Part shown: positions 30,616-59,172 of the stretch, in pieces | Layout: the number at the start of each line of letters is the position of its first letter | Position numbering within the stretch: position 1 is the first letter of the stretch | Sequence record: OZ035742.1 | DNA: 64,000 bases | From: Felixounavirus AN17P8 | Reading direction: 5' to 3' (one strand) | Notes under the pieces: generated by a model | What the model was told of the DNA's origin: nothing | What the model saw: the letters and a program-made list of their open reading frames with translations, nothing else | Databases searched by the model: none | Made by a program: the position numbers and the translations under genes

Positions 30616-30747
30616 GATAGTCTACCTCTCTGTATGTTTTTAAATAGTGAGTGATGAGTTCTGGTAATTCACTACGTTTAACGTTTGAACGAAGAAGTGT
30701 CCAGTCAAAACCTTTACCAACCCTTCCCCAGAGACTGTACATTTTCT

Positions 30748-30981
30748 TCATAGCAACTCCAGAATATCAATACGTTCGCCTTTGAGTACTCCAGTACGGT
30801 CTTTTGCAATCTTACCGTCAACGATAAGGATGTGTGTAGACCTTAAAGCATCGTTGTTAAAGGTTTTTACGAACTTGCTAGGCATGACTACAATGGACAT
30901 CTCCTGAATTAACTCTGGAGTGTAGCAGTTATCATGAAGTTGCTGAATAACGTCTGCAAGTGTCATTTTTGGTGTCTCCAA
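30748..30981 (-). CDS. hypothetical protein
   Basis: 77 aa ORF. Confidence 0.3.
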   Translation of the reverse strand: METPKMTLADVIQQLHDNCYTPELIQEMSIVVMPSKFVKTFNNDALRSTHILIVDGKIAKDRTGVLKGERIDILELL

Positions 30982-31172
30982 TACTCAATATCAATAAGTT
31001 CTTGTGCAATACTTTTCAGATTACCTTTCAAGAAAACCTTCTCAGAACCTGAAAGAGATGAATTGTCAATTAACCTGCTCATCCTCTCAAACAACTTCTG
31101 TTTACGGTTCTTGATAGTTTCCTTTGAAGCACCTTTCATCATCGCTGCATGGGTTCTTCCACGGTGGCTCAT
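30963..31172 (-). CDS. hypothetical protein
   Basis: 69 aa ORF, basic. Confidence 0.3.
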   Translation of the reverse strand: MSHRGRTHAAMMKGASKETIKNRKQKLFERMSRLIDNSSLSGSEKVFLKGNLKSIAQELIDIEYWRHQK

Positions 31173-31223
31173 AATCCCTCCTATATAAGATATTGTATAA
31201 GGTACTCTTCCATGAGCACCTTG

Positions 31224-31757
31224 TCAAGATAGTTTTGCAAACTCTCCGTGGAGTTTAATAGCAGCTTCACAGTAAGCTTTATGGGCTTCTTCTGGTGTGT
31301 CATGGTAACCTAAAAACATCTTCTTACCTTTATAACTTATCTGTGCGACCCACTTACCAGACTTCTTTTTAAGACTTACACCCTTGTACCCAGATTTATT
31401 GGTGACTGGTTTACCTTTATTCCAAGCACTTTGAAAATCATCTGCTTCCCTTAAGTTTACAATCCTGTTGTCAAGCGAGTCTCCGTTGATATGGTCAATG
31501 ATACCTTTTGGCATCTTGCCATACACGTAAAGCCATGCGAGTCTGTGTGCTTTATGTGCTTTCTTGTCAAAATAGATACTAATCTGTTTATGACCACTTG
31601 AATCAGTCTGGATATTACCTGCCACCTTTCCTGCATAATTACTGTTAAAAACACTAACAGCTCTTGATTTACCTTCTCTACGAAGCCAAGTAAAGACCCC
31701 TGTTTCGGGGTCATAGTGCAGCAGCTCCTTTAAACGTTTTTGTAAAATTAAATCCAT
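31224..31757 (-). CDS. HNH homing endonuclease with AP2-like DNA-binding domain
   Basis: 177 aa; IIDHINGDSLDNRIVNLREAD (HNH_3-type) and C-terminal YKGVS...GKWVAQISY...HGEFA; paralogous to 53909-54400. Confidence 0.6.
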   Translation of the reverse strand: MDLILQKRLKELLHYDPETGVFTWLRREGKSRAVSVFNSNYAGKVAGNIQTDSSGHKQISIYFDKKAHKAHRLAWLYVYGKMPKGIIDHINGDSLDNRIVNLREADDFQSAWNKGKPVTNKSGYKGVSLKKKSGKWVAQISYKGKKMFLGYHDTPEEAHKAYCEAAIKLHGEFAKLS

Positions 31758-31760
31758 TAA

Positions 31761-34490
31761 TCAATGTACCTCATACCAGCTCTTACCAACCTTTGCTGTA
31801 CCAGTTACAAGTGTTTCTTTCCTCAAACCTAAGTTTTTTGAAGCTTGTCCATACATCCAGTCAGCAATTGCTTTCATATCATGTGTCATACCCTCTGGAC
31901 ATTCCCAACTATTTTCATCGTGATATGCCAGAAGTAACCTTGCTCCGATAGCTGGTTTTCGAGCATTCAGTTTTGTCAGGCCATCTTCACAGGCTTTTCT
32001 TGCTGCTAGGTTGATGGCCTCATTCTGAATCTGTGCTTCCGAACTCATCAGGAGGTAGTTCAGTAGTTTATGTGGAGATTTGCACCATATCCATGCTCCA
32101 GCGACCCTGATATAACCACCTTTAGCAATTGAAGAATTCTTCCCAAAAACCTCTTCCAGAGCCTTTTTAGACGCCTTAAAATCGGCTTCTAAGCTATCAA
32201 GTAACTTCTTAATCTTTGGCAGACGCATATAGTAAGTTTGTTTAGTCAATGCACCTTCTTCCGTAGATGATGCCTTGATAGTTTTTGCAAACTTCTCGTC
32301 TCCGGCTCCAAATAACAGGGCGTAGATGCCATTTTTGCTCTTCTTACGGCCTTTTGTAATCTCGTGAAGAAGTTCCTCATCCTGTGTCTCCCTACAACGA
32401 ACAATATCTTCTTCCTTGTTCAGACCAAAGTAAATACTGTTCAGTGTATGCGCATCAGTCCCTGTGTAGACTTCATAGAGGTCGTTCTCAGCATCATAAC
32501 GAAGATACTTGTCAGTTTCTGGATTAAGATACTTATCGAGATGCTTGCAATAGTATCTGCCATCCTCTTGCTTAGTGAACTCTACTGACTCTTTACCCTC
32601 AGTTACTGCTTTAGTGAAGTCTTCATCACCCATAAAGTTACAAAGGAGAACTAGCTGGGCTGAGTTCATATCAACGGAGACTACGTTGGTTCCTTCCTCG
32701 CAAATCCACACCTCCCTCATAGGCGCTCCATAGACAGCAGCACCAGATGGTACGTTTACAATACCATATTGTGTCATACGTCCAGTTGAAGTACCAAACA
32801 CCATTGCACCAGCACTAAGGCGACCATCAGGACGAATCTGGTTCAACCAACCTTTTTCATCATCTTTTGAGTTCTCAATAGTTCTGCGTCGGTGCATTAA
32901 AGTATAGTACTTAGCAATCTTCTGTCCAAGCTCACCTTCAATCGTATCATAAGATGATTCAGTAAGTTTTGGTGAAGTACGGATTAAGCAAGGCTCAAGC
33001 AAATCTGTGTATTTCTTCACAGACCAGTTATGCTCAATGTACTGTACACCTTCATGTTCAACATAACTCAAACCACATCGTTCCACCATTTCCTGCCACT
33101 TAGGATGTTTTGTAATCATCTTTTTATTGTCTTTGAAACGACAAACTTTGACAGGGCGACCGTCTGAGTCTTTCTTGTAGTTCCAGTCATCTGGAATCCA
33201 ACCAACTGATTTCAAGTAGTCTTTAACAACTGCTACCTGAGTCATACGAGAAACTTCGAACTCAATTGGTGTATATGGTGCATCAATCAAACCTGTGTAG
33301 CGACTTGACTCAAGTTCAAAGTGGTTAACAACGTGACTGTTATAGTACTTCACAGTTTTGACTGTTTTTACTGGCTTCCAGTCTTTGCATTTCTTACCAA
33401 TCTTTGCGTTCAACTCATTGCAAATTGCACGAGCATCCTTCATTGCTACAAAACCTTCCTTGTACTCTTCACCAGTTACAGTGTTGGTTGGTGTATAGCA
33501 ATTTCTCTTTTCAATGTTAAAAATCTTTGTAGTTGGCTTACCAAATGGTTTGATTTCGTATGTCTGCATCTCGCCATTACGTACCTGCTGACGATACTTT
33601 GTCTTAGGGTACTTGGTAATTCTTTTCAGTCCATCTGCATGACCAAATGTTTCAACATACTCATTCCAAGCTTTTGCAAACTCTTCTCCAGTGACTTTAC
33701 CTTTGGTCTTAATAGTTGGAGGCAGATGTGGTTCAACCTCTGAAGCAAGCTCATTAGTCAACTTGTCAAGTTCCTTTACATGGAACTCCATAAGCCCCTT
33801 ATCAGCTTTCCAACCATTGATAGCTTGTTGACTCATCCAGAAAGATGTTTCTTTAGCTCGCATGTAGGTTTCATAAGTGTCTATGCCACACTTCTTAAGC
33901 TTGAGATACTCATTATCAAGTGCCCGTTTAGTTTTGGCGTTAATACGGATATCTTCTACAACACGAGTGAAGATTTCTGCATTCCACACACCCCAATGCT
34001 CAATCTCTGGCTTACGAACACCAACACGAGCACCCCAAGCAGCCAAGCCATGAGCACCTTTATAACCCTTTGGAGTTGGTCTATCCATCCACTGAACACG
34101 AGACTGGATAAGAGAGTCCTGAAAGAAATTACTCCACGGTTTACACTTTGGATTATCAAAGTTCCATAAATCAGGTGCAATGTGATTGAAAACCCACCAG
34201 TCATAACCGAGACCATTATGGATGCAAAGACGTTTTGCCTTTAACGCAAATTCAACACCTTCACGTAAACCACCCTTGATGTACTTAGTGTACTTGTGAC
34301 CGAGGATAGGCTCATCTGTAAAGACCCATACAGGTGGCTCTTCATCGTCAGATTTATAGTCTGCGAAAGCCATTACGTGAACTTTAGTGAACTCAAGGAG
34401 TAAACCATCAGTTTCTGTATCACCAACCAAATGTAAGTTTTTAAAATCTACGTTTTCCATTTTTACTCCCTCTAAAATCATTAACCCCAT
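31761..34490 (-). CDS. DNA polymerase, family A, with 3'-5' exonuclease domain
   Basis: 909 aa; exo motif GDTETDG; family A motif A VSVDMNSAQLVLL, motif B KNGIYALLFGAG, motif C LLAYHDENSWE. Confidence 0.85.
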   Translation of the reverse strand: MGLMILEGVKMENVDFKNLHLVGDTETDGLLLEFTKVHVMAFADYKSDDEEPPVWVFTDEPILGHKYTKYIKGGLREGVEFALKAKRLCIHNGLGYDWWVFNHIAPDLWNFDNPKCKPWSNFFQDSLIQSRVQWMDRPTPKGYKGAHGLAAWGARVGVRKPEIEHWGVWNAEIFTRVVEDIRINAKTKRALDNEYLKLKKCGIDTYETYMRAKETSFWMSQQAINGWKADKGLMEFHVKELDKLTNELASEVEPHLPPTIKTKGKVTGEEFAKAWNEYVETFGHADGLKRITKYPKTKYRQQVRNGEMQTYEIKPFGKPTTKIFNIEKRNCYTPTNTVTGEEYKEGFVAMKDARAICNELNAKIGKKCKDWKPVKTVKTVKYYNSHVVNHFELESSRYTGLIDAPYTPIEFEVSRMTQVAVVKDYLKSVGWIPDDWNYKKDSDGRPVKVCRFKDNKKMITKHPKWQEMVERCGLSYVEHEGVQYIEHNWSVKKYTDLLEPCLIRTSPKLTESSYDTIEGELGQKIAKYYTLMHRRRTIENSKDDEKGWLNQIRPDGRLSAGAMVFGTSTGRMTQYGIVNVPSGAAVYGAPMREVWICEEGTNVVSVDMNSAQLVLLCNFMGDEDFTKAVTEGKESVEFTKQEDGRYYCKHLDKYLNPETDKYLRYDAENDLYEVYTGTDAHTLNSIYFGLNKEEDIVRCRETQDEELLHEITKGRKKSKNGIYALLFGAGDEKFAKTIKASSTEEGALTKQTYYMRLPKIKKLLDSLEADFKASKKALEEVFGKNSSIAKGGYIRVAGAWIWCKSPHKLLNYLLMSSEAQIQNEAINLAARKACEDGLTKLNARKPAIGARLLLAYHDENSWECPEGMTHDMKAIADWMYGQASKNLGLRKETLVTGTAKVGKSWYEVH

Positions 34491-52168: not shown

Positions 52169-52181
52169 ACAGATACTATAA

Positions 52182-52210
52182 GGGAACTGTAAAGGTTCCC
52201 TTTTTATTTT
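52182..52210 (+). terminator. rho-independent terminator
   Basis: hairpin gggaac-tgtaaag-gttccc followed by TTTTT. Confidence 0.6.
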
Positions 52211-52220
52211 TGGAGATAAA

Positions 52221-52736
52221 ATGTATCTGTCAAACCTGAAACGTTCGGCTGCAATGTCAGTTCTAAGACTCAGCTTTGAGGAACGTCAAGAGTTCATTGA
52301 CTCCCACCAATACGACCCTTCTAACTCGAATCACATGGTTCTTTGGAATCGTGATAACTTCCGTGAAAGAGCACTTGTCCGTTATTACCCACACTACACA
52401 ATAGATAACCTGTATGAATGGTGTGTTGTGAAGAACACTATTGCAACACTGAACAATCTTTGCAGGTATACAGGTAAGCAAGCATTTACATTAGGCCACC
52501 ACAAACCTGTTACAAAGGGTGGTGAGCATCACTGCGCAAACTGGTTTATCCAGACTAAACTTGATAACCAGAAGCAAGGGGATAACCTTCTAAGCACACC
52601 TAAGATGACCTATGAAGAGCAAGAGAAATATGTCAAAAATAATATGCCAGATGTGCTTGACAACAACTATACAGATTTGGCAATATCTCTCCTGTTGAAG
52701 TTCGAGACAGTTTATAGGGCAACTTACAATGGCTAA
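52221..52736 (+). CDS. hypothetical protein (possible HNH-type nuclease)
   Basis: 171 aa; GHHKPVTKGGEHHCANW...N..Q loosely resembles an HNH motif. Confidence 0.3.
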   Translation: MYLSNLKRSAAMSVLRLSFEERQEFIDSHQYDPSNSNHMVLWNRDNFRERALVRYYPHYTIDNLYEWCVVKNTIATLNNLCRYTGKQAFTLGHHKPVTKGGEHHCANWFIQTKLDNQKQGDNLLSTPKMTYEEQEKYVKNNMPDVLDNNYTDLAISLLLKFETVYRATYNG

Positions 52737-53007: not shown

Positions 53008-53900
53008 GAGAGAAAACTATGAAAACATCTATCCGTGTTACAGTTCATTCACCAACTAAAGGGACTCATGAAGAAGAGTTTAACATCGTCCAATTTCCTT
53101 CTGGTGAGATTGGTGGACATTTTTCACCAGAGTTTGTTGACTTTACTGCTTATGCTGCATCATCCATCAACAACGTGATTATGATTGTAAAGGGTTATGA
53201 CAAAGACACATTATTTGCTGTGGCACTTGCTAAAGAGGCAATTGATGATTTAGTACCTCATAAGTTTGCTATGAAGACTGCTATCTTTTACTATTTGCCA
53301 AATGCACGTTACGACCGTCACATGTTTAAAGGTGATGCAGCAGCTTTGAAAGTGTTTGCACAACAGGTTAATGCAATGGGTTTTGATGCAGTCTGTGCAG
53401 TTGACCCTCACAGTTGCGTTCCAGATAACCTGTTTAACTGCTTCCAGAGTATTCCTCAAAAGGAGATTGCAGTTCACTATGCAAATGACCCTCTGATTGA
53501 TTACTTAGTAGCCCCAGATGCAGGTGCAGCTAAGAAGATTGCAGAGACTGCTAAAGAGGTGGATAAACCATATATCACAATGTCTAAAGTGCGTAACCTT
53601 AAGACTGGTGAGATTACGGGTATGCGAATCCTTGATGATGTTGATTTGACAGATAAAACCGTCATGATTCTGGATGATATCTGTGATGGTGGTCGAACCT
53701 TCGTAGAAGCAGCAAAACATCTTCGTGAAGCAGGTGCAAAACGTGTGGAACTTTATGTAACACATGGTATCTTCTCTAAAGATGTTGAAAACCTTCTTGA
53801 CAATGGTATTGACCATATCTACACTACAAACTCTTTAGGGGAAGCTAAAGACCGTGGATTAGCACATTATGCCCAAGTTACTGTAGCAAACCTTGATTAG
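53004..53900 (+). CDS. ribose-phosphate pyrophosphokinase-like (PRPP synthetase family; candidate ADP-ribose pyrophosphate synthetase)
   Basis: 298 aa; PRTase motif VMILDDICDGGRTFVEAAKHLREAGAKRVELYVTHGIFS aligns with E. coli Prs CVLVDDMIDTGGTL...GAKRVFAYATHPIFS. Confidence 0.75.
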   Translation: MREKTMKTSIRVTVHSPTKGTHEEEFNIVQFPSGEIGGHFSPEFVDFTAYAASSINNVIMIVKGYDKDTLFAVALAKEAIDDLVPHKFAMKTAIFYYLPNARYDRHMFKGDAAALKVFAQQVNAMGFDAVCAVDPHSCVPDNLFNCFQSIPQKEIAVHYANDPLIDYLVAPDAGAAKKIAETAKEVDKPYITMSKVRNLKTGEITGMRILDDVDLTDKTVMILDDICDGGRTFVEAAKHLREAGAKRVELYVTHGIFSKDVENLLDNGIDHIYTTNSLGEAKDRGLAHYAQVTVANLD

Positions 53901-53908
53901 GTAATAGT

Positions 53909-54400
53909 GTGAATAAGGGTTATTTTGAAAAATACCTAATATATGAACCAGATACAGGTTTATTAATTTGGAGAGTAACCCTTTGCAGTACCGCTATTGC
54001 TGGTAATGTGGCTGGCACAAGGTCTAAGAAGGGTTATATCCAAGTCCAGATAAATAAGAAGAGGTACTATGCACATAATATTGCATGGATTATGTCTGGA
54101 GGTGAGATACCAAGTGGATATGAGGTAGACCACATAGACCTTGATAAAGCTAATAATAAGTTGGAGAATTTAAGACTTAGCACAAAGTCACAAAATCAGA
54201 GAAATAGGGGTATACACAAGAATAATAAAACTGGTGTGAAGGGTGTAAGTTTTTGTAAACAAACAGGTCTTTACAAAGCAAGAGTCATGCTTTACTATAA
54301 AGAATACTTTTGTGGAAGATTTAAAACGGTAGAAGAAGCAAAAGAAGCTGTAATTAAAAAGCGAATAGAACTTCATGGTGAGTTTGCAAGACATAACTAA
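53909..54400 (+). CDS. HNH homing endonuclease with AP2-like domain
   Basis: 163 aa; YEVDHIDLDKANNKLENLRLSTKSQN and GVKGVSF...HGEFA; paralogous to 31224-31757; inserted between Prs-like and NAMPT-like genes. Confidence 0.6.
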   Translation: MNKGYFEKYLIYEPDTGLLIWRVTLCSTAIAGNVAGTRSKKGYIQVQINKKRYYAHNIAWIMSGGEIPSGYEVDHIDLDKANNKLENLRLSTKSQNQRNRGIHKNNKTGVKGVSFCKQTGLYKARVMLYYKEYFCGRFKTVEEAKEAVIKKRIELHGEFARHN

Positions 54401-54414
54401 GAGAGAGATAAAAT

Positions 54415-56196
54415 ATGAGTAAGTCACTTTACGCAGTACCAGCAGGTCTTAATGCAGATGCTTACAAGGCATCACATATATATCAGTATCCAGATGCTAC
54501 GCAATATCTTATGTTGAACCTAACACCACGTAGCGACAAATGGTTTAACAGTCCTTTAGCAATTGATGGTGTAGTGGCTTTTGGTATTCAACGTTTTGTT
54601 AAAGATTACTTGATAGACCACTGGAACGCCACTTTCTTTGAACGTGATAAAAAAGAAGCAATTGACGAAATCTTAGAAGTTATGAATGGTGTTCTGGGTA
54701 AAGATGCTATCGGTCGAGAGCATTGGGAAGCACTTCACGACTTAGGCTATCTACCAGTTGAAGTGTACGCTGTAGAAGAAGGTACAGTTGTTCCTATGCG
54801 TGTCCCAATGATTGTCTTCCAGAACACTGTTTCAGGTTTCCATTGGGTAGCAGGTTATCTGGAAGACGCTTTCTCTGCTGAGATTTGGAAGGCTTGCACC
54901 ATTGCAACTATTGCATTGCACTACAAACGTATCTGTAAGAAGTGGGCTGACCTCACTTGCGACAACGACTTGCATTTACCTTATCAGTGCCATGACTTTG
55001 CTATGCGTGGTATGTCCGGCTTTACTGATGACGCATTCAACGCTGTAGGACACTTAACCAGCTTTAAAGGGACTGATAGCTTCCCTGCTGTATACACGGC
55101 TAAACGTATCTATGGGCAGACCTATCCAATCTCTGATATTGGAAGCTCTGTACCAGCCACTGAACACTCTGTAATGTGTGCAAACATTGCTTGGGAAGGT
55201 GGTAACGAGTTGGTTGAAGAAGAAAGACGATTTAAAGGTGAGTTGCAAACCTTCCGTCGTTTCTTAACAGAAACTTACCCAACTGGTATTGCAAGTATTG
55301 TTTCAGATACTTATAACTTCTGGAGAACTGTGTCAGAAATCTTACCAGCACTTCGTAAAGAAATTATGGAACGTGACGGTAAGCTGGTAATTCGCCCTGA
55401 CTCTGGAGACCCTGTACACATTGTCACAGGTTATAAAGCAATCCACTTAGAGTGTGCTAAGAAGGCTTATTATGAGCACCTAAGCAAGCTGGAAGCTAGT
55501 GACACAATGTTGAATGCTGTTCTGAACATGAAGCTTGAAAACATCAACTATGGTATTGCTGGATGGCTACTGTCAGAAGGCTACGAAATGGTTGTTGACA
55601 GAGAAGACTTTGAAGTTGCTGATACAGTGATGTTGAAAAATGCTTATATGGTCGGTTCTGCAAACGTTGTAACACGTCCTGTAGCTGAAATTGATGGAGC
55701 TATTAAGACACTGTACAACATCTTTGGGGGAACTATTAACTCTAAAGGGTTTAAGGTACTGGATGAACATATCGGCCTTATCTATGGTGACTCTATCACG
55801 CTGGAACGTGCAAACGAAATCCTGAAGCGTCTGTATGAAATGGGTTTTGCAAGCTCTAACGTAGTGTTTGGTGTAGGCTCTTACACTTACCAGTACATGA
55901 CTCGTGACACCTTTGCATTTGCTGTCAAAGCAACTCTTGCAAGCATTGGTGGTAAAGAGATTATGCTTGCAAAAGACCCTAAAACAGATAGTGGTGTTAA
56001 GAAGTCTGCCTTTGGTGGTGTAGCACCTATGTGGGACGGTGATAAGCTGAAAGCTGTAGATGGATATGGATTCCAGAGTTTTGCAGATGTACTTGACCAC
56101 CCAGCCTGTGCTTTACGTTTAGTCTTTAGTGACTCTGAGCAGTTCGGTTACACGACTCTTGGTGATATTCGAAATAATATTGACAAGCAGCTTTAA
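54415..56196 (+). CDS. nicotinamide phosphoribosyltransferase-like (NAMPT family; candidate nicotinamide ADP-ribose transferase)
   Basis: 593 aa; DAYKASHIYQYP, HDFAMRGMSG, SFKGTDS, VSDTYN, IRPDSGDP, IYGDSI align with conserved NAMPT motifs (DSYKVTHYKQYP, HDFGYRG, NFKGTDT, VSDSYD, IRPDSGNP, IQGDGV). Confidence 0.8.
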   Translation: MSKSLYAVPAGLNADAYKASHIYQYPDATQYLMLNLTPRSDKWFNSPLAIDGVVAFGIQRFVKDYLIDHWNATFFERDKKEAIDEILEVMNGVLGKDAIGREHWEALHDLGYLPVEVYAVEEGTVVPMRVPMIVFQNTVSGFHWVAGYLEDAFSAEIWKACTIATIALHYKRICKKWADLTCDNDLHLPYQCHDFAMRGMSGFTDDAFNAVGHLTSFKGTDSFPAVYTAKRIYGQTYPISDIGSSVPATEHSVMCANIAWEGGNELVEEERRFKGELQTFRRFLTETYPTGIASIVSDTYNFWRTVSEILPALRKEIMERDGKLVIRPDSGDPVHIVTGYKAIHLECAKKAYYEHLSKLEASDTMLNAVLNMKLENINYGIAGWLLSEGYEMVVDREDFEVADTVMLKNAYMVGSANVVTRPVAEIDGAIKTLYNIFGGTINSKGFKVLDEHIGLIYGDSITLERANEILKRLYEMGFASSNVVFGVGSYTYQYMTRDTFAFAVKATLASIGGKEIMLAKDPKTDSGVKKSAFGGVAPMWDGDKLKAVDGYGFQSFADVLDHPACALRLVFSDSEQFGYTTLGDIRNNIDKQL

Positions 56197-56210
56197 AAGT
56201 ATATGATAAG

Positions 56211-56233
56211 AGGCTCCTACGGGAGCCTTTTTA
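56211..56233 (+). terminator. rho-independent terminator
   Basis: hairpin aggctcc-tacg-ggagcct followed by TTTTT. Confidence 0.6.
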
Positions 56234-56771: not shown

Positions 56772-59138
56772 ATGCGCATGGTAAACGACCACGCAGAAGT
56801 GATTAAGAGTTCAACTTCTTTGGAGACATCTCAAGCACAGATTACAATGACACCTGAAATGTTTAGCCTTCTGAGTTCTGGTGTATACACGTTTAAAGAG
56901 CGAGCAGTGATTCGTGAACTGTCATGTAACGCAGTAGATGCTCAGAAAGAAGCTGGAAAAGAAAACATCCCATTCCATGTGCATTTACCTACTCGATTTG
57001 AGCCTTACTTTGAAGTCCGTGACTTTGGAACTGGTTTAACCCACGACAAAGTAATGAGTTTGTATCTGAACTACGGGGCTTCTACGAAGAATGACTCTAA
57101 TGATTACATTGGTGCAATGGGTATCGGCTCAAAATCCCCATTTGCAATTGCTCAGTCATTCACAGTATCTAGCTATGTTGATGGTGTTGTTAATAAGTAC
57201 TCTGTTTACCTTGAGAATGGTATCCCTCAAGTGACTAAGCTTACTACTAACCCAACAAATGAACCTAATGGCTTAGCTGTACGTGTGGCAGTTGCTGACC
57301 ACCGTATTTCAAAGTTCTTTGAAGAGGCTGGTCACGTATATTCATACTTTGCTGTAAAACCAGAAAGTAACATTGTATATGATGACGTGTTAGCAGATAT
57401 GAACGTCATTGCTCGTGAAGAAGGTGTTTATGACGCTATGATTCATAAGCAAAGCTGGCGTTCTAGTGGTAACAGGACAGAGTTTAATGTGGTGATGGGT
57501 AATATTGCCTATCCAGTGAACATGGAAGCATTACTTGGTGATGATTTCTTCAAAGTCTTGCCAGAGTTTTTCCGTAGGAGCGTAGACCTTGTAAACATCT
57601 ACATGCCTATTGGTTCAGTTGCTATAGCAGCTTCTCGTGAAGCATTGCAGATGAATGATACGACAAAAAATGTTATCATTGAGGCAACTAAAAAGATAAC
57701 TGAAGCAATTACAAAGGATGTTATCAAGAAAGTTAATAGTCAACCTACACTCATGGATGCTGCACAGGCTTATGCTGAGTTACGTTTGAACTCACGAGAA
57801 ATGTTTAATGCTGTGTGTCCAAAGCTAGAGTGGGGAGGTGTTAAGCTTGATTCTCTGGAAGAAGAATTGCTAAACATTCGTCGTGGGATTATCTACGCAG
57901 AAGACGGCTCAGTCATTTATGAACGTGACGGTAAAGGCAATATTAAGGTTGATAGGAACGGAAACAACATCCCTAAAGTAGATTATCTTTATAACCCAGT
58001 TGCTTATGTCAAGTTCAACTCTTTAGAGAGTAAGGTTCGTGCAACAGCACTTTCCTACACTCAAGAGGCAAGTATGTTCAATATCTTTGGTGCAATGCGT
58101 AAGAGCCAAATTGAACAGTTTTTGTTCGTGATTAATGACCGCCGCAATAAAAACGGTACTGAGAAGACTGTAGGCCGCAATCAGATTCTGCGTGGTGCAT
58201 GTCGAGACTATGCCAGTGAGTCAAGTCTGTTTCACAGATACAATGGTATTGTGTTTGTATTCTCGACTGAAAAAGAGTTAGATGATTTAATCAATCTACA
58301 CAAACTTGATAAAAGCTTGTTAAAGATTGTGAAAATGTCTGATAAGGAACACCATTACCAGCGCAAAGAAGCTGTAAGAGGTGTTGTAAAACTCTGGAAA
58401 GCAGTTCCAGCAGAATCTGTAGCTTCATACACAGAGGTGTCAGAAGACTTAGACACAATTGAAGAGCCTCAGCTTTACATTAAGGCAGTAGGTGACACAG
58501 TTGATGGCAAATGCTTTTGCTCATCTCCAGAAGATGTAGCTAAGTCAGTTGCTAATGTTATAGGGAAGACAGTCTATGTTTTCCGAAAAGCAAATTGGAA
58601 AAAGATACCAGAAGACTGGATTGAAGTAGATGAGAAGCTCTTGAACGACAGCTTAACTGATGTTCACTGGATTAATCATAACAGGTATATGACACGCATC
58701 TACATGAATGGTGTTCTTGACCTTACAAGCAGTTGGATTATTGCCAGAAACTTTACATTCAATAACAGGAAGATTTCTCGTGGTTATTGCTACTCACGAG
58801 ATACTAGCAAAACTATCTTCCTAGAAGGTAACGAAGAGGCTGTAGAGGCAATTTTCGGTAAAATCCAGTATGTTGCTGCACCGTTTGCATACACTTACAC
58901 TATTAGTGTGTTGAAGACTTTGAAAGAATGTCTTGACAATGATACAAAGCTTTACAAGAAAATTAAGAAAGCTGGCGACCGCATGGTTATTAAGTTGGCA
59001 AACTACCTTTCAAAAAGAAAACAAGAAAACTTCTTGCTTTCCCATTTAGATTGGAATAAAGTGTCACCTATTGAAGTGAGTAAGTTTTTGGGCTTTAATG
59101 TGAAATGTGTTCCAGAAGGTACAACAGTTTACGATTAA
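56772..59138 (+). CDS. rIIA: rIIA-like protein with N-terminal GHKL (HATPase_c) ATPase domain
   Basis: 788 aa; GHKL motifs ELSCNAVDA (N box), VRDFGTGL (G1), GAMGIGSKS (G2); followed by rIIB-like gene. Confidence 0.6.
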   Translation: MRMVNDHAEVIKSSTSLETSQAQITMTPEMFSLLSSGVYTFKERAVIRELSCNAVDAQKEAGKENIPFHVHLPTRFEPYFEVRDFGTGLTHDKVMSLYLNYGASTKNDSNDYIGAMGIGSKSPFAIAQSFTVSSYVDGVVNKYSVYLENGIPQVTKLTTNPTNEPNGLAVRVAVADHRISKFFEEAGHVYSYFAVKPESNIVYDDVLADMNVIAREEGVYDAMIHKQSWRSSGNRTEFNVVMGNIAYPVNMEALLGDDFFKVLPEFFRRSVDLVNIYMPIGSVAIAASREALQMNDTTKNVIIEATKKITEAITKDVIKKVNSQPTLMDAAQAYAELRLNSREMFNAVCPKLEWGGVKLDSLEEELLNIRRGIIYAEDGSVIYERDGKGNIKVDRNGNNIPKVDYLYNPVAYVKFNSLESKVRATALSYTQEASMFNIFGAMRKSQIEQFLFVINDRRNKNGTEKTVGRNQILRGACRDYASESSLFHRYNGIVFVFSTEKELDDLINLHKLDKSLLKIVKMSDKEHHYQRKEAVRGVVKLWKAVPAESVASYTEVSEDLDTIEEPQLYIKAVGDTVDGKCFCSSPEDVAKSVANVIGKTVYVFRKANWKKIPEDWIEVDEKLLNDSLTDVHWINHNRYMTRIYMNGVLDLTSSWIIARNFTFNNRKISRGYCYSRDTSKTIFLEGNEEAVEAIFGKIQYVAAPFAYTYTISVLKTLKECLDNDTKLYKKIKKAGDRMVIKLANYLSKRKQENFLLSHLDWNKVSPIEVSKFLGFNVKCVPEGTTVYD

Positions 59139-59142
59139 GTGC

Positions 59143-59172
59143 TTGACAAGGGGCTTCAAAGCCCCTTAGAAT
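59143..59172 (+). promoter_or_regulatory. sigma70-like promoter (TTGACA-18-TAGAAT) with hairpin in spacer
   Basis: -35 TTGACA 59143-59148, -10 TAGAAT 59167-59172; spacer forms palindrome aaggggct-tcaa-agcccctt; about 45 nt upstream of rIIB-like gene. Confidence 0.5.

What the first reader, a model, noticed from the sequence alone, without database searches (positions are those of the whole stretch)
53909..54400. Homing endonuclease inserted between the two NAD+ pathway genes
The HNH-AP2 gene sits 8 bp after the Prs-like stop and 14 bp before the NAMPT-like start, splitting what is presumably a functional pair. This suggests a recent mobile insertion that could mobilise the neighbouring counter-defence genes by co-conversion.
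Basis: inference. Interest (0 to 1): 0.45.

Follow-up and report, generated by a model that had tools for sequence, protein, structure and literature searches.

The report
Mobile endonuclease gene inside phage NAD-repair operon
A small selfish nuclease gene really does sit between the two NAD+-rebuilding genes of this Felix O1-like phage; comparison with relatives suggests it moves between phages and carries the first ~64 bases of the downstream gene with it, an ordinary kind of element.

Summary
ORF 53909..54400 (+, 163 aa, GTG start) lies 8 bp after the Prs-like (adps) stop and 14 bp before the NAMPT-like (namat) ATG. It is an HNH_3 nuclease domain fused to an AP2 DNA-binding domain.

The window is a Felixounavirus. 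Of 251 GenBank phage records with this locus, 61 (24%) carry the gene. The rest, including Bas63, the phage in which NARP1 was shown experimentally, have a 45-bp spacer with a conserved hairpin that the gene replaces.

The gene's history disagrees with its flanks:
- Felixounavirus versus Moogle/phiSUSP1: dS 0.2-0.46 for the gene against 0.85-1.3 for the flanks.
- The window's allele is about 10-fold younger than its flanks.
- The Felix O1 allele is older than its flanks.

In Moogle and phiSUSP1, 13 of 13 informative sites from 54414 to 54478 are donor-type. Sequence then reverts to resident type, and there is no tract on the adps side.

So this is a free-standing homing endonuclease gene, with comparative evidence of mobility but no biochemistry. 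The site association is ancient (Arno162), not just a recent insertion. Only about 64 bp of namat hitch-hikes, not the counter-defence genes. It is a known kind of element, already annotated, and of modest interest.

The parts
52180..52202 (+). Terminator-like hairpin marking the upstream end of the transcription unit that holds the 171-aa ORF, the 92-aa ORF, adps, the HEG and namat.
   Evidence: Consensus scan only: 9-pair stem followed by a T run.
53019..53900 (+). adps (Prs-like ADP-ribose pyrophosphokinase of NARP1), 293 aa from the ATG that relatives annotate. The ORF could also start at TTG 53004. The stop is TAG in every close HEG-carrying genome and TGA or TAA in HEG-less genomes.
   Evidence: Pribosyltran/Pribosyl_synth, phrog_619. 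79.6% aa identity to Bas63 gp79. Stop-codon states.
53901..53908 (+). 8-bp gap between adps and the HEG. A weak Shine-Dalgarno-like AGG(T) overlaps the adps stop (53899-53902). This is the left edge of the HEG-specific DNA.
   Evidence: HEG-less genomes diverge from HEG-carrying ones immediately after ...CTTGATT.
53909..54400 (+). Free-standing homing endonuclease gene, 163 aa, GTG start. Intact reading frame with the invariant residues D74, H75, N87, R89 and N99.
   Evidence: dN/dS about 0.1-0.17 between allele groups.
54065..54202 (+). HNH_3 (beta-beta-alpha-metal) nuclease core, aa 53-98.
   Evidence: Pfam HNH_3 68.5 bits. The model matches I-HmuI 1u3e.
54230..54379 (+). AP2-type DNA-binding domain, aa 108-157 (three strands plus a helix).
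   Evidence: Pfam AP2 at 20.6 bits, below the cut-off. Homologues carry PF00847. Foldseek matches to 7wq5, 7et5 and 1gcc at rmsd 1.3-1.7 A, probability 1.0.
54401..54414 (+). 14-bp gap holding the namat ribosome-binding region GAGAGAGA, which both alleles share. Position 54414 (-1 of the ATG) is T in all 12 close HEG-carrying loci and G (once A) in all HEG-less loci.
54415..54478 (+). HEG-linked co-conversion tract, the first 64 bp of namat. In Moogle and phiSUSP1 all 13 informative sites from 54414 to 54478 are Felixounavirus-HEG+ type, and sites from 54480 on are resident type. It includes codon 2 AGT (Ser) against ACT (Thr), which tracks HEG presence among close relatives. This is the inferred location of the target or immunity determinants.
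54415..56196 (+). namat (NAMPT-like nicotinamide ADP-ribose transferase of NARP1), 593 aa.
   Evidence: 97.8% aa identity to Bas63 gp80. 9W5W/9W5X SpbetaL1 Namat at E 5e-129.
56208..56231 (+). Terminator-like hairpin closing the unit after namat.
   Evidence: Consensus scan: 10-pair stem followed by TTTT.

Best explanation
ORF 53909..54400 is a free-standing homing endonuclease gene (HEG) of the HNH_3/I-HmuI-like plus AP2 class. It resides in the adps-namat intergenic site of Ounavirinae phages.

Proposed mechanism:
1. During mixed infection, the enzyme uses its AP2 domain to recognise the HEG-less allele of the adps-namat junction.
2. Its HNH domain nicks or cuts at or near the start of namat. 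The most likely region is the spacer plus the first ~20 codons.
3. The break is repaired from the HEG-carrying genome. This copies in the HEG together with the first ~64 bp of namat.
4. The HEG-carrying allele is protected because the 31-bp hairpin segment is gone and the -1 and codon-2 positions are changed.

Shown by comparison:
- domain architecture and intact catalytic residues;
- presence/absence polymorphism at one exact site;
- replacement of a conserved hairpin;
- HEG phylogeny incongruent with the flanks, both within the genus and between genera;
- a sharply bounded, one-sided co-conversion tract;
- purifying selection on the protein.

Inferred, not shown: that the protein cleaves, where it cleaves, what confers immunity, and that this window's own GTG-start copy is still active.

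The element is old at this site and cycles between occupied (about 24% of sequenced relatives) and empty states. It leaves adps and namat in one transcription unit.
For: Anatomy:
- ORF position and spacing.
- HNH_3 at 68.5 bits and phrog_99 at 1.7e-67.
- 159 homologues, many carrying HNH_3 plus AP2.
- Invariant D74, H75, N87, R89 and N99 are all present.
- AlphaFold2 model pLDDT 91.6, matching I-HmuI and AP2/ERF folds.

Polymorphism:
- The HEG DNA is full length in 61 phage records, while 251 records carry the locus.
- HEG-less records span about 932 bp instead of 1401 bp.
- Empty sites in REP10, Bas63 and 23 other loci have a 45-bp spacer with a conserved GGGGC-loop-GCCCC hairpin.

Incongruence:
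- Felixounavirus versus Moogle/phiSUSP1: HEG dS 0.20-0.46 against adps 0.85-1.3 and namat 1.06-1.25.
- Third-position differences, Felix O1 versus phiSUSP1: 23/163 against 290/692, p=3e-12.
- Window versus VpaE1: 1/163 against 86/693, p=1.5e-7.
- Window versus Felix O1, in the opposite direction: 34/163 against 58/693, p=1.7e-5.
- HEG carriers are scattered on the adps tree, but all cluster on the first 105 bp of namat.

Co-conversion:
- 13 of 13 donor-type sites from 54414 to 54478 in both Moogle and phiSUSP1, resident type from 54480 on and on the whole adps side.
- The -1 T and codon-2 AGT track HEG presence in 12 carrying and 29 HEG-less loci.

Selection and site fidelity:
- dN/dS about 0.1-0.17 between allele groups, with no truncated copies among good assemblies.
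- The same site is occupied in Arno162, L035 and L037.

Literature:
- HNH-AP2 is a recognised HEG class and AP2 domains favour GC-rich DNA (PMC10448857, citing Magnani 2004).
- Felix O1 is reported to carry six HEG-like genes (PMC8300805).
Against: - There is no biochemical or genetic test of cleavage or biased inheritance for this protein or any close relative.
- There is no co-conversion at all on the adps side: resident-type sites run to 3 bp before the stop. This is unusual for double-strand-break repair across 78%-identical DNA. It may mean later recombination trimmed the tract, or that the mechanism is nick-initiated and one-sided.
- No decayed copies were found, which a purely selfish gain-decay-loss cycle would predict. 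This leaves room for a benefit to the phage.
- In the L035 and Arno162 lineages, HEG divergence tracks flank divergence, so much of its history is vertical.
- The window's own copy has a GTG start and shares four lineage-specific amino-acid changes with ESCO50, with almost no synonymous change (dN 0.016 against dS 0.010 versus VpaE1/Si3). It could be attenuated.
- L035 carries a HEG with codon-2 ACT, and Bas63 and L038 lack the HEG but have codon-6 TAC. The proposed immunity positions are therefore not universal.
- A hairpin almost identical to the empty-site one exists at 59150 in this HEG-carrying genome, so the hairpin alone cannot be the whole target.
Confidence: 0.8

Rival explanations
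1. The gene is retained because it benefits the phage, either instead of or in addition to selfish homing. Possible benefits: excluding related co-infecting phages, cutting host or competitor DNA, attenuating a DNA-break-sensing defence, promoting amplification or allele exchange of the NARP1 genes, or changing adps:namat expression by removing the intercistronic hairpin.
For: - Purifying selection (dN/dS 0.1-0.17).
- Every carrier has an intact ORF.
- Long-term persistence at the same site down to 45-50% aa flank identity.
- The HEG replaces a hairpin that is conserved in all 23+ HEG-less loci across the genera, so the operon's architecture differs between the alleles.
- Recent papers report that phage HEGs amplify anti-defence loci (SegB, PMC13096335) or attenuate GAPS4 immunity (bioRxiv 10.1101/2025.09.07.674715).
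Against: - Three quarters of relatives do without it, including Bas63, whose HEG-less operon is fully active against SIR2-HerA (bioRxiv 10.1101/2024.02.11.579819).
- Nothing here links the HEG to NARP1 output.
- No tandem amplification of the region is seen in any locus examined.
- The incongruence and the co-conversion tract are explained by homing alone.
Confidence: 0.15
2. There is no active homing. The gene was present in an ancestor of Ounavirinae, is inherited vertically and by ordinary homologous recombination between co-infecting phages, and has been deleted repeatedly. Empty sites are the derived state.
For: - The HEG is at the same site in very distant lineages with roughly matching divergence (L035: 77/78/75% aa; Arno162: 45/56/50% aa).
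- Felixounaviruses are highly mosaic anyway. For example, the two adps allele classes share a boundary near 53470 that is unrelated to the HEG.
Against: - HEG synonymous divergence between genera is 3-5 times lower than in both flanks, and about 10 times lower within allele group A.
- The transferred segment has the HEG at one end and a sharp boundary 64 bp into namat in two phages of different genera.
- The empty site is not a scar. It holds a conserved, structured 45-bp spacer shared by both genus groups.
- General recombination would not keep the -1 and codon-2 variants in complete linkage with the HEG.
Confidence: 0.08
3. In this particular window the gene is a decaying, poorly expressed or inactive copy, even if the family is active.
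For: - The GTG start is unique among 62 sequences.
- The branch leading to the window and ESCO50 has four amino-acid replacements (V73, N82, H104, Y131) and almost no synonymous change.
Against: - The ORF is full length, and all invariant and near-invariant residues are intact.
- GTG is a legitimate bacterial start codon, and an AGG(T) lies 7 nt upstream.
- None of the four changes hits a conserved column.
Confidence: 0.12

Closest known systems
I-HmuI / I-HmuII / I-BasI / I-TwoI (HNH_3-type phage homing endonucleases; structure 1U3E)
   Same: The same HNH_3 catalytic core with a D-H...N...N arrangement. The predicted N-terminal ~105 aa superpose on I-HmuI (Foldseek E 5.8e-4). It is a small, monomer-sized, phage-encoded protein. 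From memory: these enzymes nick one strand.
   Different: Those enzymes are encoded inside group I introns and use NUMOD/helix-turn-helix modules for DNA binding. This one is free-standing between two genes and uses an AP2 domain. Sequence identity is only about 25%, and there was no phmmer hit to any PDB chain.
HNH-AP2 homing endonuclease family (Magnani et al. 2004; 'IPA-HNH' HEGs of ICP1 in Barth et al. 2023, PMC10448857)
   Same: N-terminal HNH plus C-terminal AP2 architecture in a phage. It is free-standing and lies at a boundary of genetic exchange between related phages, as PMC10448857 describes for ICP1.
   Different: The ICP1 IPA-HNH domains are too divergent for the Pfam HNH_3 profile, whereas this one is a canonical HNH_3 hit. 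None of this subfamily has a mapped cleavage site.
T4 free-standing HEGs with distant cleavage sites and marker exclusion (SegG, SegB, MobE; PMC2988022, PMC2790892, PMC2330249)
   Same: An intergenic HEG whose spread drags in neighbouring sequence. The obligatorily co-converted stretch lies between the HEG and the presumed cut site in the adjacent conserved gene. The HEG-carrying allele differs by a few substitutions there.
   Different: Seg proteins are GIY-YIG enzymes. MobE is an HNH enzyme but lacks an AP2 domain. The T4 cases are shown by crosses and cleavage mapping, whereas here there are only comparative footprints. The tract here is short (64 bp) and strictly one-sided.
NARP1 operon of Bas63 / SpbetaL1 (Osterman et al., bioRxiv 10.1101/2024.02.11.579819)
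   Same: The flanking genes are orthologues of Bas63 gp79 (Adps, 79.6% aa) and gp80 (Namat, 97.8% aa), in the same order and the same genomic neighbourhood.
   Different: The characterised operon is the HEG-less allele, with a 45-bp hairpin spacer. The window has the HEG-occupied allele without the hairpin. The NARP1 papers searched do not mention a homing or HNH gene in the operon.

Membership tests
HNH_3 / His-Me finger endonucleases (I-HmuI-like) | Profile match above the curated threshold | tested here: met
   Pfam PF13392 at 68.5 bits against a cut-off of 24.8, aa 53-98. phrog_99 'HNH endonuclease' at 1.7e-67.
HNH_3 / His-Me finger endonucleases (I-HmuI-like) | Catalytic Asp-His and metal-binding or structural Asn residues conserved | tested here: met
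   In a 54-sequence alignment D74, H75, N87, R89 and N99 are invariant, N83 and N96 are nearly invariant, and all are present in the window protein.
HNH_3 / His-Me finger endonucleases (I-HmuI-like) | Beta-beta-alpha-metal fold | tested here: met
   On a predicted model only: pLDDT 91.6. Best PDB match is I-HmuI 1u3e, E 5.8e-4, probability 1.0, 105 columns.
HNH_3 / His-Me finger endonucleases (I-HmuI-like) | Divalent-metal-dependent DNA nicking or cleavage | not testable with these tools
   Needs purified protein and substrate.
AP2 DNA-binding domain | Profile match above the curated threshold | tested here: not met
   PF00847 at 20.6 bits against a cut-off of 33.3 (E 5.4e-4) for the window protein. 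Many homologues, and the in-window paralogue at 31224..31757, do pass.
AP2 DNA-binding domain | Three-stranded sheet packed on a helix, superposable on solved AP2/ERF domains | tested here: met
   Model strands 113-116, 121-128 and 131-138 plus helix 141-159. Foldseek matches to 7wq5, 7et5, 1gcc and 5wx9 at probability 0.99-1.0, rmsd 1.3-1.7 A over 53-55 columns.
Free-standing homing endonuclease gene | Own ORF in an intergenic position, not within an intron or intein | tested here: met
   It lies between the adps stop and the namat ribosome-binding site, and both flanking ORFs are intact.
Free-standing homing endonuclease gene | Presence/absence polymorphism at one precise site among close relatives | tested here: met
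   61 of 251 GenBank records carry it. The junctions are identical in all carriers, and the empty site is conserved.
Free-standing homing endonuclease gene | Gene history incongruent with flanking genes (horizontal spread) | tested here: met
   dS and third-position tests, significant in both directions. Trees.
Free-standing homing endonuclease gene | Co-conversion of flanking markers with the gene | tested here: met
   13 of 13 donor-type sites from 54414 to 54478 in Moogle and phiSUSP1, then resident type. There is none on the left side.
Free-standing homing endonuclease gene | Site-specific cleavage of the endonuclease-free allele and resistance of the occupied allele | not testable with these tools
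   Only candidate determinants were identified: hairpin loss, -1 T/G, and codon 2 AGT/ACT.
Free-standing homing endonuclease gene | Biased (super-Mendelian) inheritance in mixed infection | not testable with these tools
   Requires phage crosses.
NARP1 (Adps + Namat) for the flanking genes | Orthology to experimentally characterised Adps and Namat, as a neighbouring pair | tested here: met
   Bas63 gp79 79.6% aa and gp80 97.8% aa. Namat matches 9W5W at 5e-129 against about 1e-41 for Nampt. Enzyme activities were not tested here.

The most novel reading that the evidence does not exclude
The endonuclease is more than a passenger. By breaking DNA at the start of namat in co-infecting relatives, it would act as a driver of allele exchange, or SegB-like segmental amplification, of the NARP1 counter-defence operon. 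Its replacement of the conserved adps-namat hairpin would also re-tune the ratio of the two enzymes. HEG-occupied and empty operons would then be functionally different alleles, maintained by selection from NAD+-depleting defences.
Probability: 0.1. Interest if true: 0.6.

Novelty: new member of a known kind. Interest (0 to 1): 0.3.

Why it matters
The main value is as a clean natural example. The same selfish gene occupies the same 45-bp gap inside a now well-studied anti-defence operon (NARP1) in about a quarter of sequenced Felix O1-like phages. Two features are unusually clear:
- a cross-genus transfer whose hitch-hiking tract can be read to within 2 bp;
- two allelic operon architectures, hairpin or endonuclease.

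It also has practical consequences:
- The region 53.9-54.5 kb should be masked in Ounavirinae phylogenies.
- NARP1 'two-gene operon' detectors should allow an intervening gene.
- Bas63 (empty site) paired with a carrier such as VpaE1 or Felix O1 is a ready system to test homing, target-site immunity, and whether homing endonucleases affect counter-defence genes.

It does not change what is known about homing endonucleases or about NARP1.

Tried and rejected
- Sequence search of the HEG against PDB chains found nothing, and NCBIfam has no family for it. The fold search was needed instead.
These were useful as independent confirmation but too few for population statistics.
- Magnani et al. 2004 is not held. 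Its claim that AP2 prefers G/C-rich DNA is cited through PMC10448857.
- Idea: the GGGGC...GCCCC hairpin of the empty site is the AP2 recognition element. This was weakened because an almost identical hairpin sits at 59150 in this HEG-carrying genome.
- Idea: the HEG has its own promoter at 53797-53825 (TTGACA-17-TACACT). Rejected as HEG-specific, because the same hexamers are present in every HEG-less genome inside adps.
- Idea: the deep mosaic boundary in adps near 53470 is a long co-conversion tract of the HEG. Rejected, because the same boundary occurs in HEG-less phages and both adps classes occur with and without the HEG.
- Codon 6 (TAC/TAT) as a strictly HEG-linked marker. Rejected, because L038 and Bas63 lack the HEG yet have TAC.
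- Base composition: the HEG is 34.8% GC against 40-42% in the flanks and 39.3% in the window. This is only mildly deviant and was not used as evidence.
- Minus-strand ORFs inside the HEG (53963..54133, 54188..54427) have no support and were ignored.

Full report
**1. What is there.**
The window is a Felix O1-like myovirus (Felixounavirus). The 3.6 kb around the finding is 93-97% identical to Si3, VSe11, Mushroom, ESCO50, VpaE1 and about 250 other records.

ORF 53909..54400 (+, 163 aa) exists as described. It starts with GTG, 8 bp after the TAG stop of the Prs-like gene (53898-53900). It ends 14 bp before the ATG of the NAMPT-like gene at 54415.

Domain evidence for the protein:
- Pfam gives HNH_3 at 68.5 bits (cut-off 24.8) for aa 53-98.
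- Pfam gives AP2 at 20.6 bits (cut-off 33.3) for aa 108-157, which is sub-threshold.
- PHROGs gives phrog_99 'HNH endonuclease' at 1.7e-67.
- Of 159 database homologues, many carry both PF13392 and PF00847.
- In a 54-sequence alignment D74, H75, N87, R89 and N99 are invariant, and all are present here.
- An AlphaFold2 model (pLDDT 91.6) matches the HNH homing endonuclease I-HmuI over the N-terminal ~105 residues (1u3e, E 5.8e-4).
- The same model matches plant AP2/ERF domains over the C-terminal ~55 residues (rmsd 1.3-1.7 A, probability 1.0).

The 'HNH-AP2' label is therefore right, although the AP2 half rests on fold and family context rather than on the Pfam score.

**2. The neighbours are NARP1.**
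The flanking genes are orthologues of Bas63 gp79 and gp80, the pair shown to rebuild NAD+ from ADPR and nicotinamide (bioRxiv 10.1101/2024.02.11.579819).
- Namat is 97.8% aa identical and Adps 79.6% aa identical to the Bas63 proteins.
- The Namat-like protein hits the solved SpbetaL1 Namat (9W5W/9W5X) at 5e-129, against about 1e-41 for ordinary Nampt.
- Consensus scans place terminator-like hairpins at 52180-52202 and 56208-56231. The 171-aa ORF, the 92-aa ORF, adps, the endonuclease gene and namat therefore form one unit.

**3. Presence/absence.**
The endonuclease DNA is found full length in 61 phage records at 89-99.8% identity, while 251 records carry the locus. That is about 24% occupancy.

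In the others the two NARP1 genes are adjacent; a 1401-bp query spans only about 932 bp there. REP10, Bas63 and 23 further HEG-less loci from IMG/VR and metagenomes have a 45-bp spacer. It holds a conserved hairpin, GGGGC-loop-GCCCC followed by (A/C)TTT. The hairpin folds at -14.3 kcal/mol with z -2.3, its loop varies and its stem is kept, and it is present in both genus groups.

The occupied allele lacks this hairpin. About 31 bp are replaced by about 500 bp, directly after the adps stop and directly before the shared GAGAGAGA ribosome-binding stretch of namat. So it is a replacement rather than a simple insertion, and the experimentally studied Bas63 operon is the empty allele.

**4. Is it mobile?**
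Three comparisons say yes.

(a) Between genera. Citrobacter phage Moogle and Escherichia phage phiSUSP1 carry the gene at the same site, while their closest relatives (L024, L025, L028-L030) do not.
- Against Felixounavirus carriers the endonuclease gene is 87-91% identical, whereas adps and namat are 76-78% identical.
- dS is 0.20-0.46 for the endonuclease gene, against 0.85-1.3 (adps) and 1.06-1.25 (namat).
- Third-position differences, Felix O1 versus phiSUSP1, are 23/163 against 290/692, p=3e-12.

(b) Within the genus there are two allele groups.
- Group A comprises the window, ESCO50, Si3, VpaE1 and L003. Group B comprises Felix O1, L004 and ASO1A.
- Group A alleles are far younger than their flanks: window versus VpaE1, 1/163 against 86/693 third-position differences, p=1.5e-7.
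- A-versus-B divergence is larger than that of the flanks: window versus Felix O1, 34/163 against 58/693, p=1.7e-5.

(c) Carriers are scattered on the adps tree. They cluster together, across genera, on the first 105 bp of namat.

**5. The co-conversion footprint.**
I used sites where Felixounavirus carriers and the HEG-less relatives of Moogle and phiSUSP1 differ.
- Both Moogle and phiSUSP1 are resident-type throughout adps, up to 53897.
- They are donor-type at 13 of 13 consecutive sites from 54414 to 54478.
- They are resident-type again from 54480 on.

The unit that moved is therefore 53901-54478: the endonuclease gene, the spacer and the first 64 bp of namat. It carries the amino-acid differences with it (…YKASHIYQ… against …YKSGH(V/F)YQ…).

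Among 12 carrying and 29 HEG-less close loci, the base before the ATG (T against G/A) and codon 2 (AGT against ACT) track the gene perfectly. Codon 6 does not.

About 40 GenBank records (REP10, EC6, garuso and others) lack the gene but have the carrier-type sequence from about 54440 on. They are either the ancestral background, products of loss by recombination, or resistant empty sites.

**6. How old.**
The same gene lineage sits in the same gap in three more distant lineages:
- the metagenomic lineage L035, with adps/HEG/namat at 77/78/75% aa;
- L037, at 62/58/47% aa;
- Pectobacterium phage Arno162, at 45/56/50% aa.

There its divergence tracks the flanks. The association is therefore ancient and largely vertical at depth, with episodic horizontal spread on top.

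All carriers have an intact 163-164-aa ORF, and dN/dS between allele groups is 0.1-0.17. The only shortened copy (P0004, 109 aa) comes from a 55,248-bp NCBI contig. Draft GenBank records such as GE_vB_NS7, of that same length, differ from their re-sequenced GEC_ counterparts, which align full length. I therefore read P0004 as a sequencing artefact.

**7. Mechanism proposed.**
By analogy with I-HmuI-type enzymes and with T4 free-standing endonucleases (SegG, SegB, MobE; PMC2988022, PMC2790892, PMC2330249), I propose four steps:
1. The AP2 domain binds the HEG-less junction.
2. The HNH domain nicks or cuts in the spacer or the first ~20 codons of namat.
3. Repair from a co-infecting carrier copies in the gene together with the obligatory stretch up to the break.
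4. The occupied allele is immune through loss of the hairpin segment and/or the -1 and codon-2 changes.

All four steps are inference. The one-sided tract, with nothing on the adps side, fits a break to the right of the gene. It is not explained in detail.

**8.
The gene is mobile and polymorphic, and a co-conversion tract exists. However:
- it is not simply recent;
- it does not disrupt the pair;
- the only traceable event moved 64 bp of namat, not the counter-defence genes.

The deep mosaic boundary in adps near 53470 is unrelated to the endonuclease.

**9. Comparison and novelty.**
HNH-AP2 endonucleases are a recognised homing family (Magnani 2004, via PMC10448857). Felix O1 is reported to have six homing-endonuclease-like genes (PMC8300805). 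This ORF is already annotated 'HNH homing endonuclease' in dozens of records.

I found no paper noting a homing gene inside NARP1. Recent work links homing endonucleases to anti-defence loci (PMC13096335; bioRxiv 10.1101/2025.09.07.674715), which gives the locus some topical value.

Overall this is a new, uncharacterised member of a known kind, a tidy example, and of modest interest (0.3).

Noticed in passing
window 31224..31757 (-): A second free-standing HNH_3+AP2 endonuclease gene (177 aa). Both Pfam domains are above threshold, and phmmer gives 2.8e-26 to the 53909 gene. It lies immediately downstream of the DNA polymerase gene (31761..34490, -). It is also polymorphic: only 41 of 256 related records cover at least 80% of window 30700-32300.
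   Followed up: partly
window 53019..53470 (5' half of adps): Felixounaviruses carry two deeply divergent allele classes of the Adps N-terminal half, about 45-88% nt identity in 60-bp windows. The shared boundary is near 53470, and both classes occur with and without the endonuclease. The experimentally tested Bas63 Adps is the other class from the window's (79.6% aa overall).
   Followed up: partly
window 53909..53911: The endonuclease start codon is GTG only in this window; all 61 GenBank relatives have ATG. The window/ESCO50 branch also has four amino-acid changes (V73, N82, H104, Y131) with almost no synonymous change, giving dN/dS above 1 on very few sites.
   Followed up: partly
L001:3399-3446, L048:13629-13673 and all other HEG-less loci (no counterpart in the window): A conserved intercistronic hairpin (GGGGC-loop-GCCCC followed by a short T run) lies between adps and namat in every endonuclease-free phage of both genus groups. 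It could be an attenuator, terminator or mRNA-processing element that sets the adps:namat ratio. It is lost in carriers.
   Followed up: partly
window 59150..59165: GGGGCTTCAAAGCCCC, just after rIIA (56772..59138), is nearly the same hairpin sequence as the empty-site spacer between adps and namat.
   Followed up: no
L033:818-2544 (Escherichia phage ESCO50): The window's closest relative at the endonuclease (99.8%) carries four extra small ORFs (131-154 aa, no significant Pfam hit) between the 92-aa ORF and adps. They are absent from the window. This is another variable slot next to the NARP1 genes.
   Followed up: partly
window 52221..52736 (+): A 171-aa ORF (phrog_3500, function unknown), conserved upstream of adps in the relatives whose annotation I inspected (REP10, Felix O1, ESCO50, ASO1A, Bas63, L035). 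It has a weak match to an HNH-endonuclease PHROG (phrog_2214, 6.8e-6, aa 58-123) and no Pfam hit.
   Followed up: no
L048:6631-9517 (Bas63 nrdD): In Bas63 the anaerobic ribonucleotide reductase gene is annotated as split by an intron that carries another putative homing endonuclease (bas63_0068). I did not check whether the window's nrdD is split in the same way.
   Followed up: no
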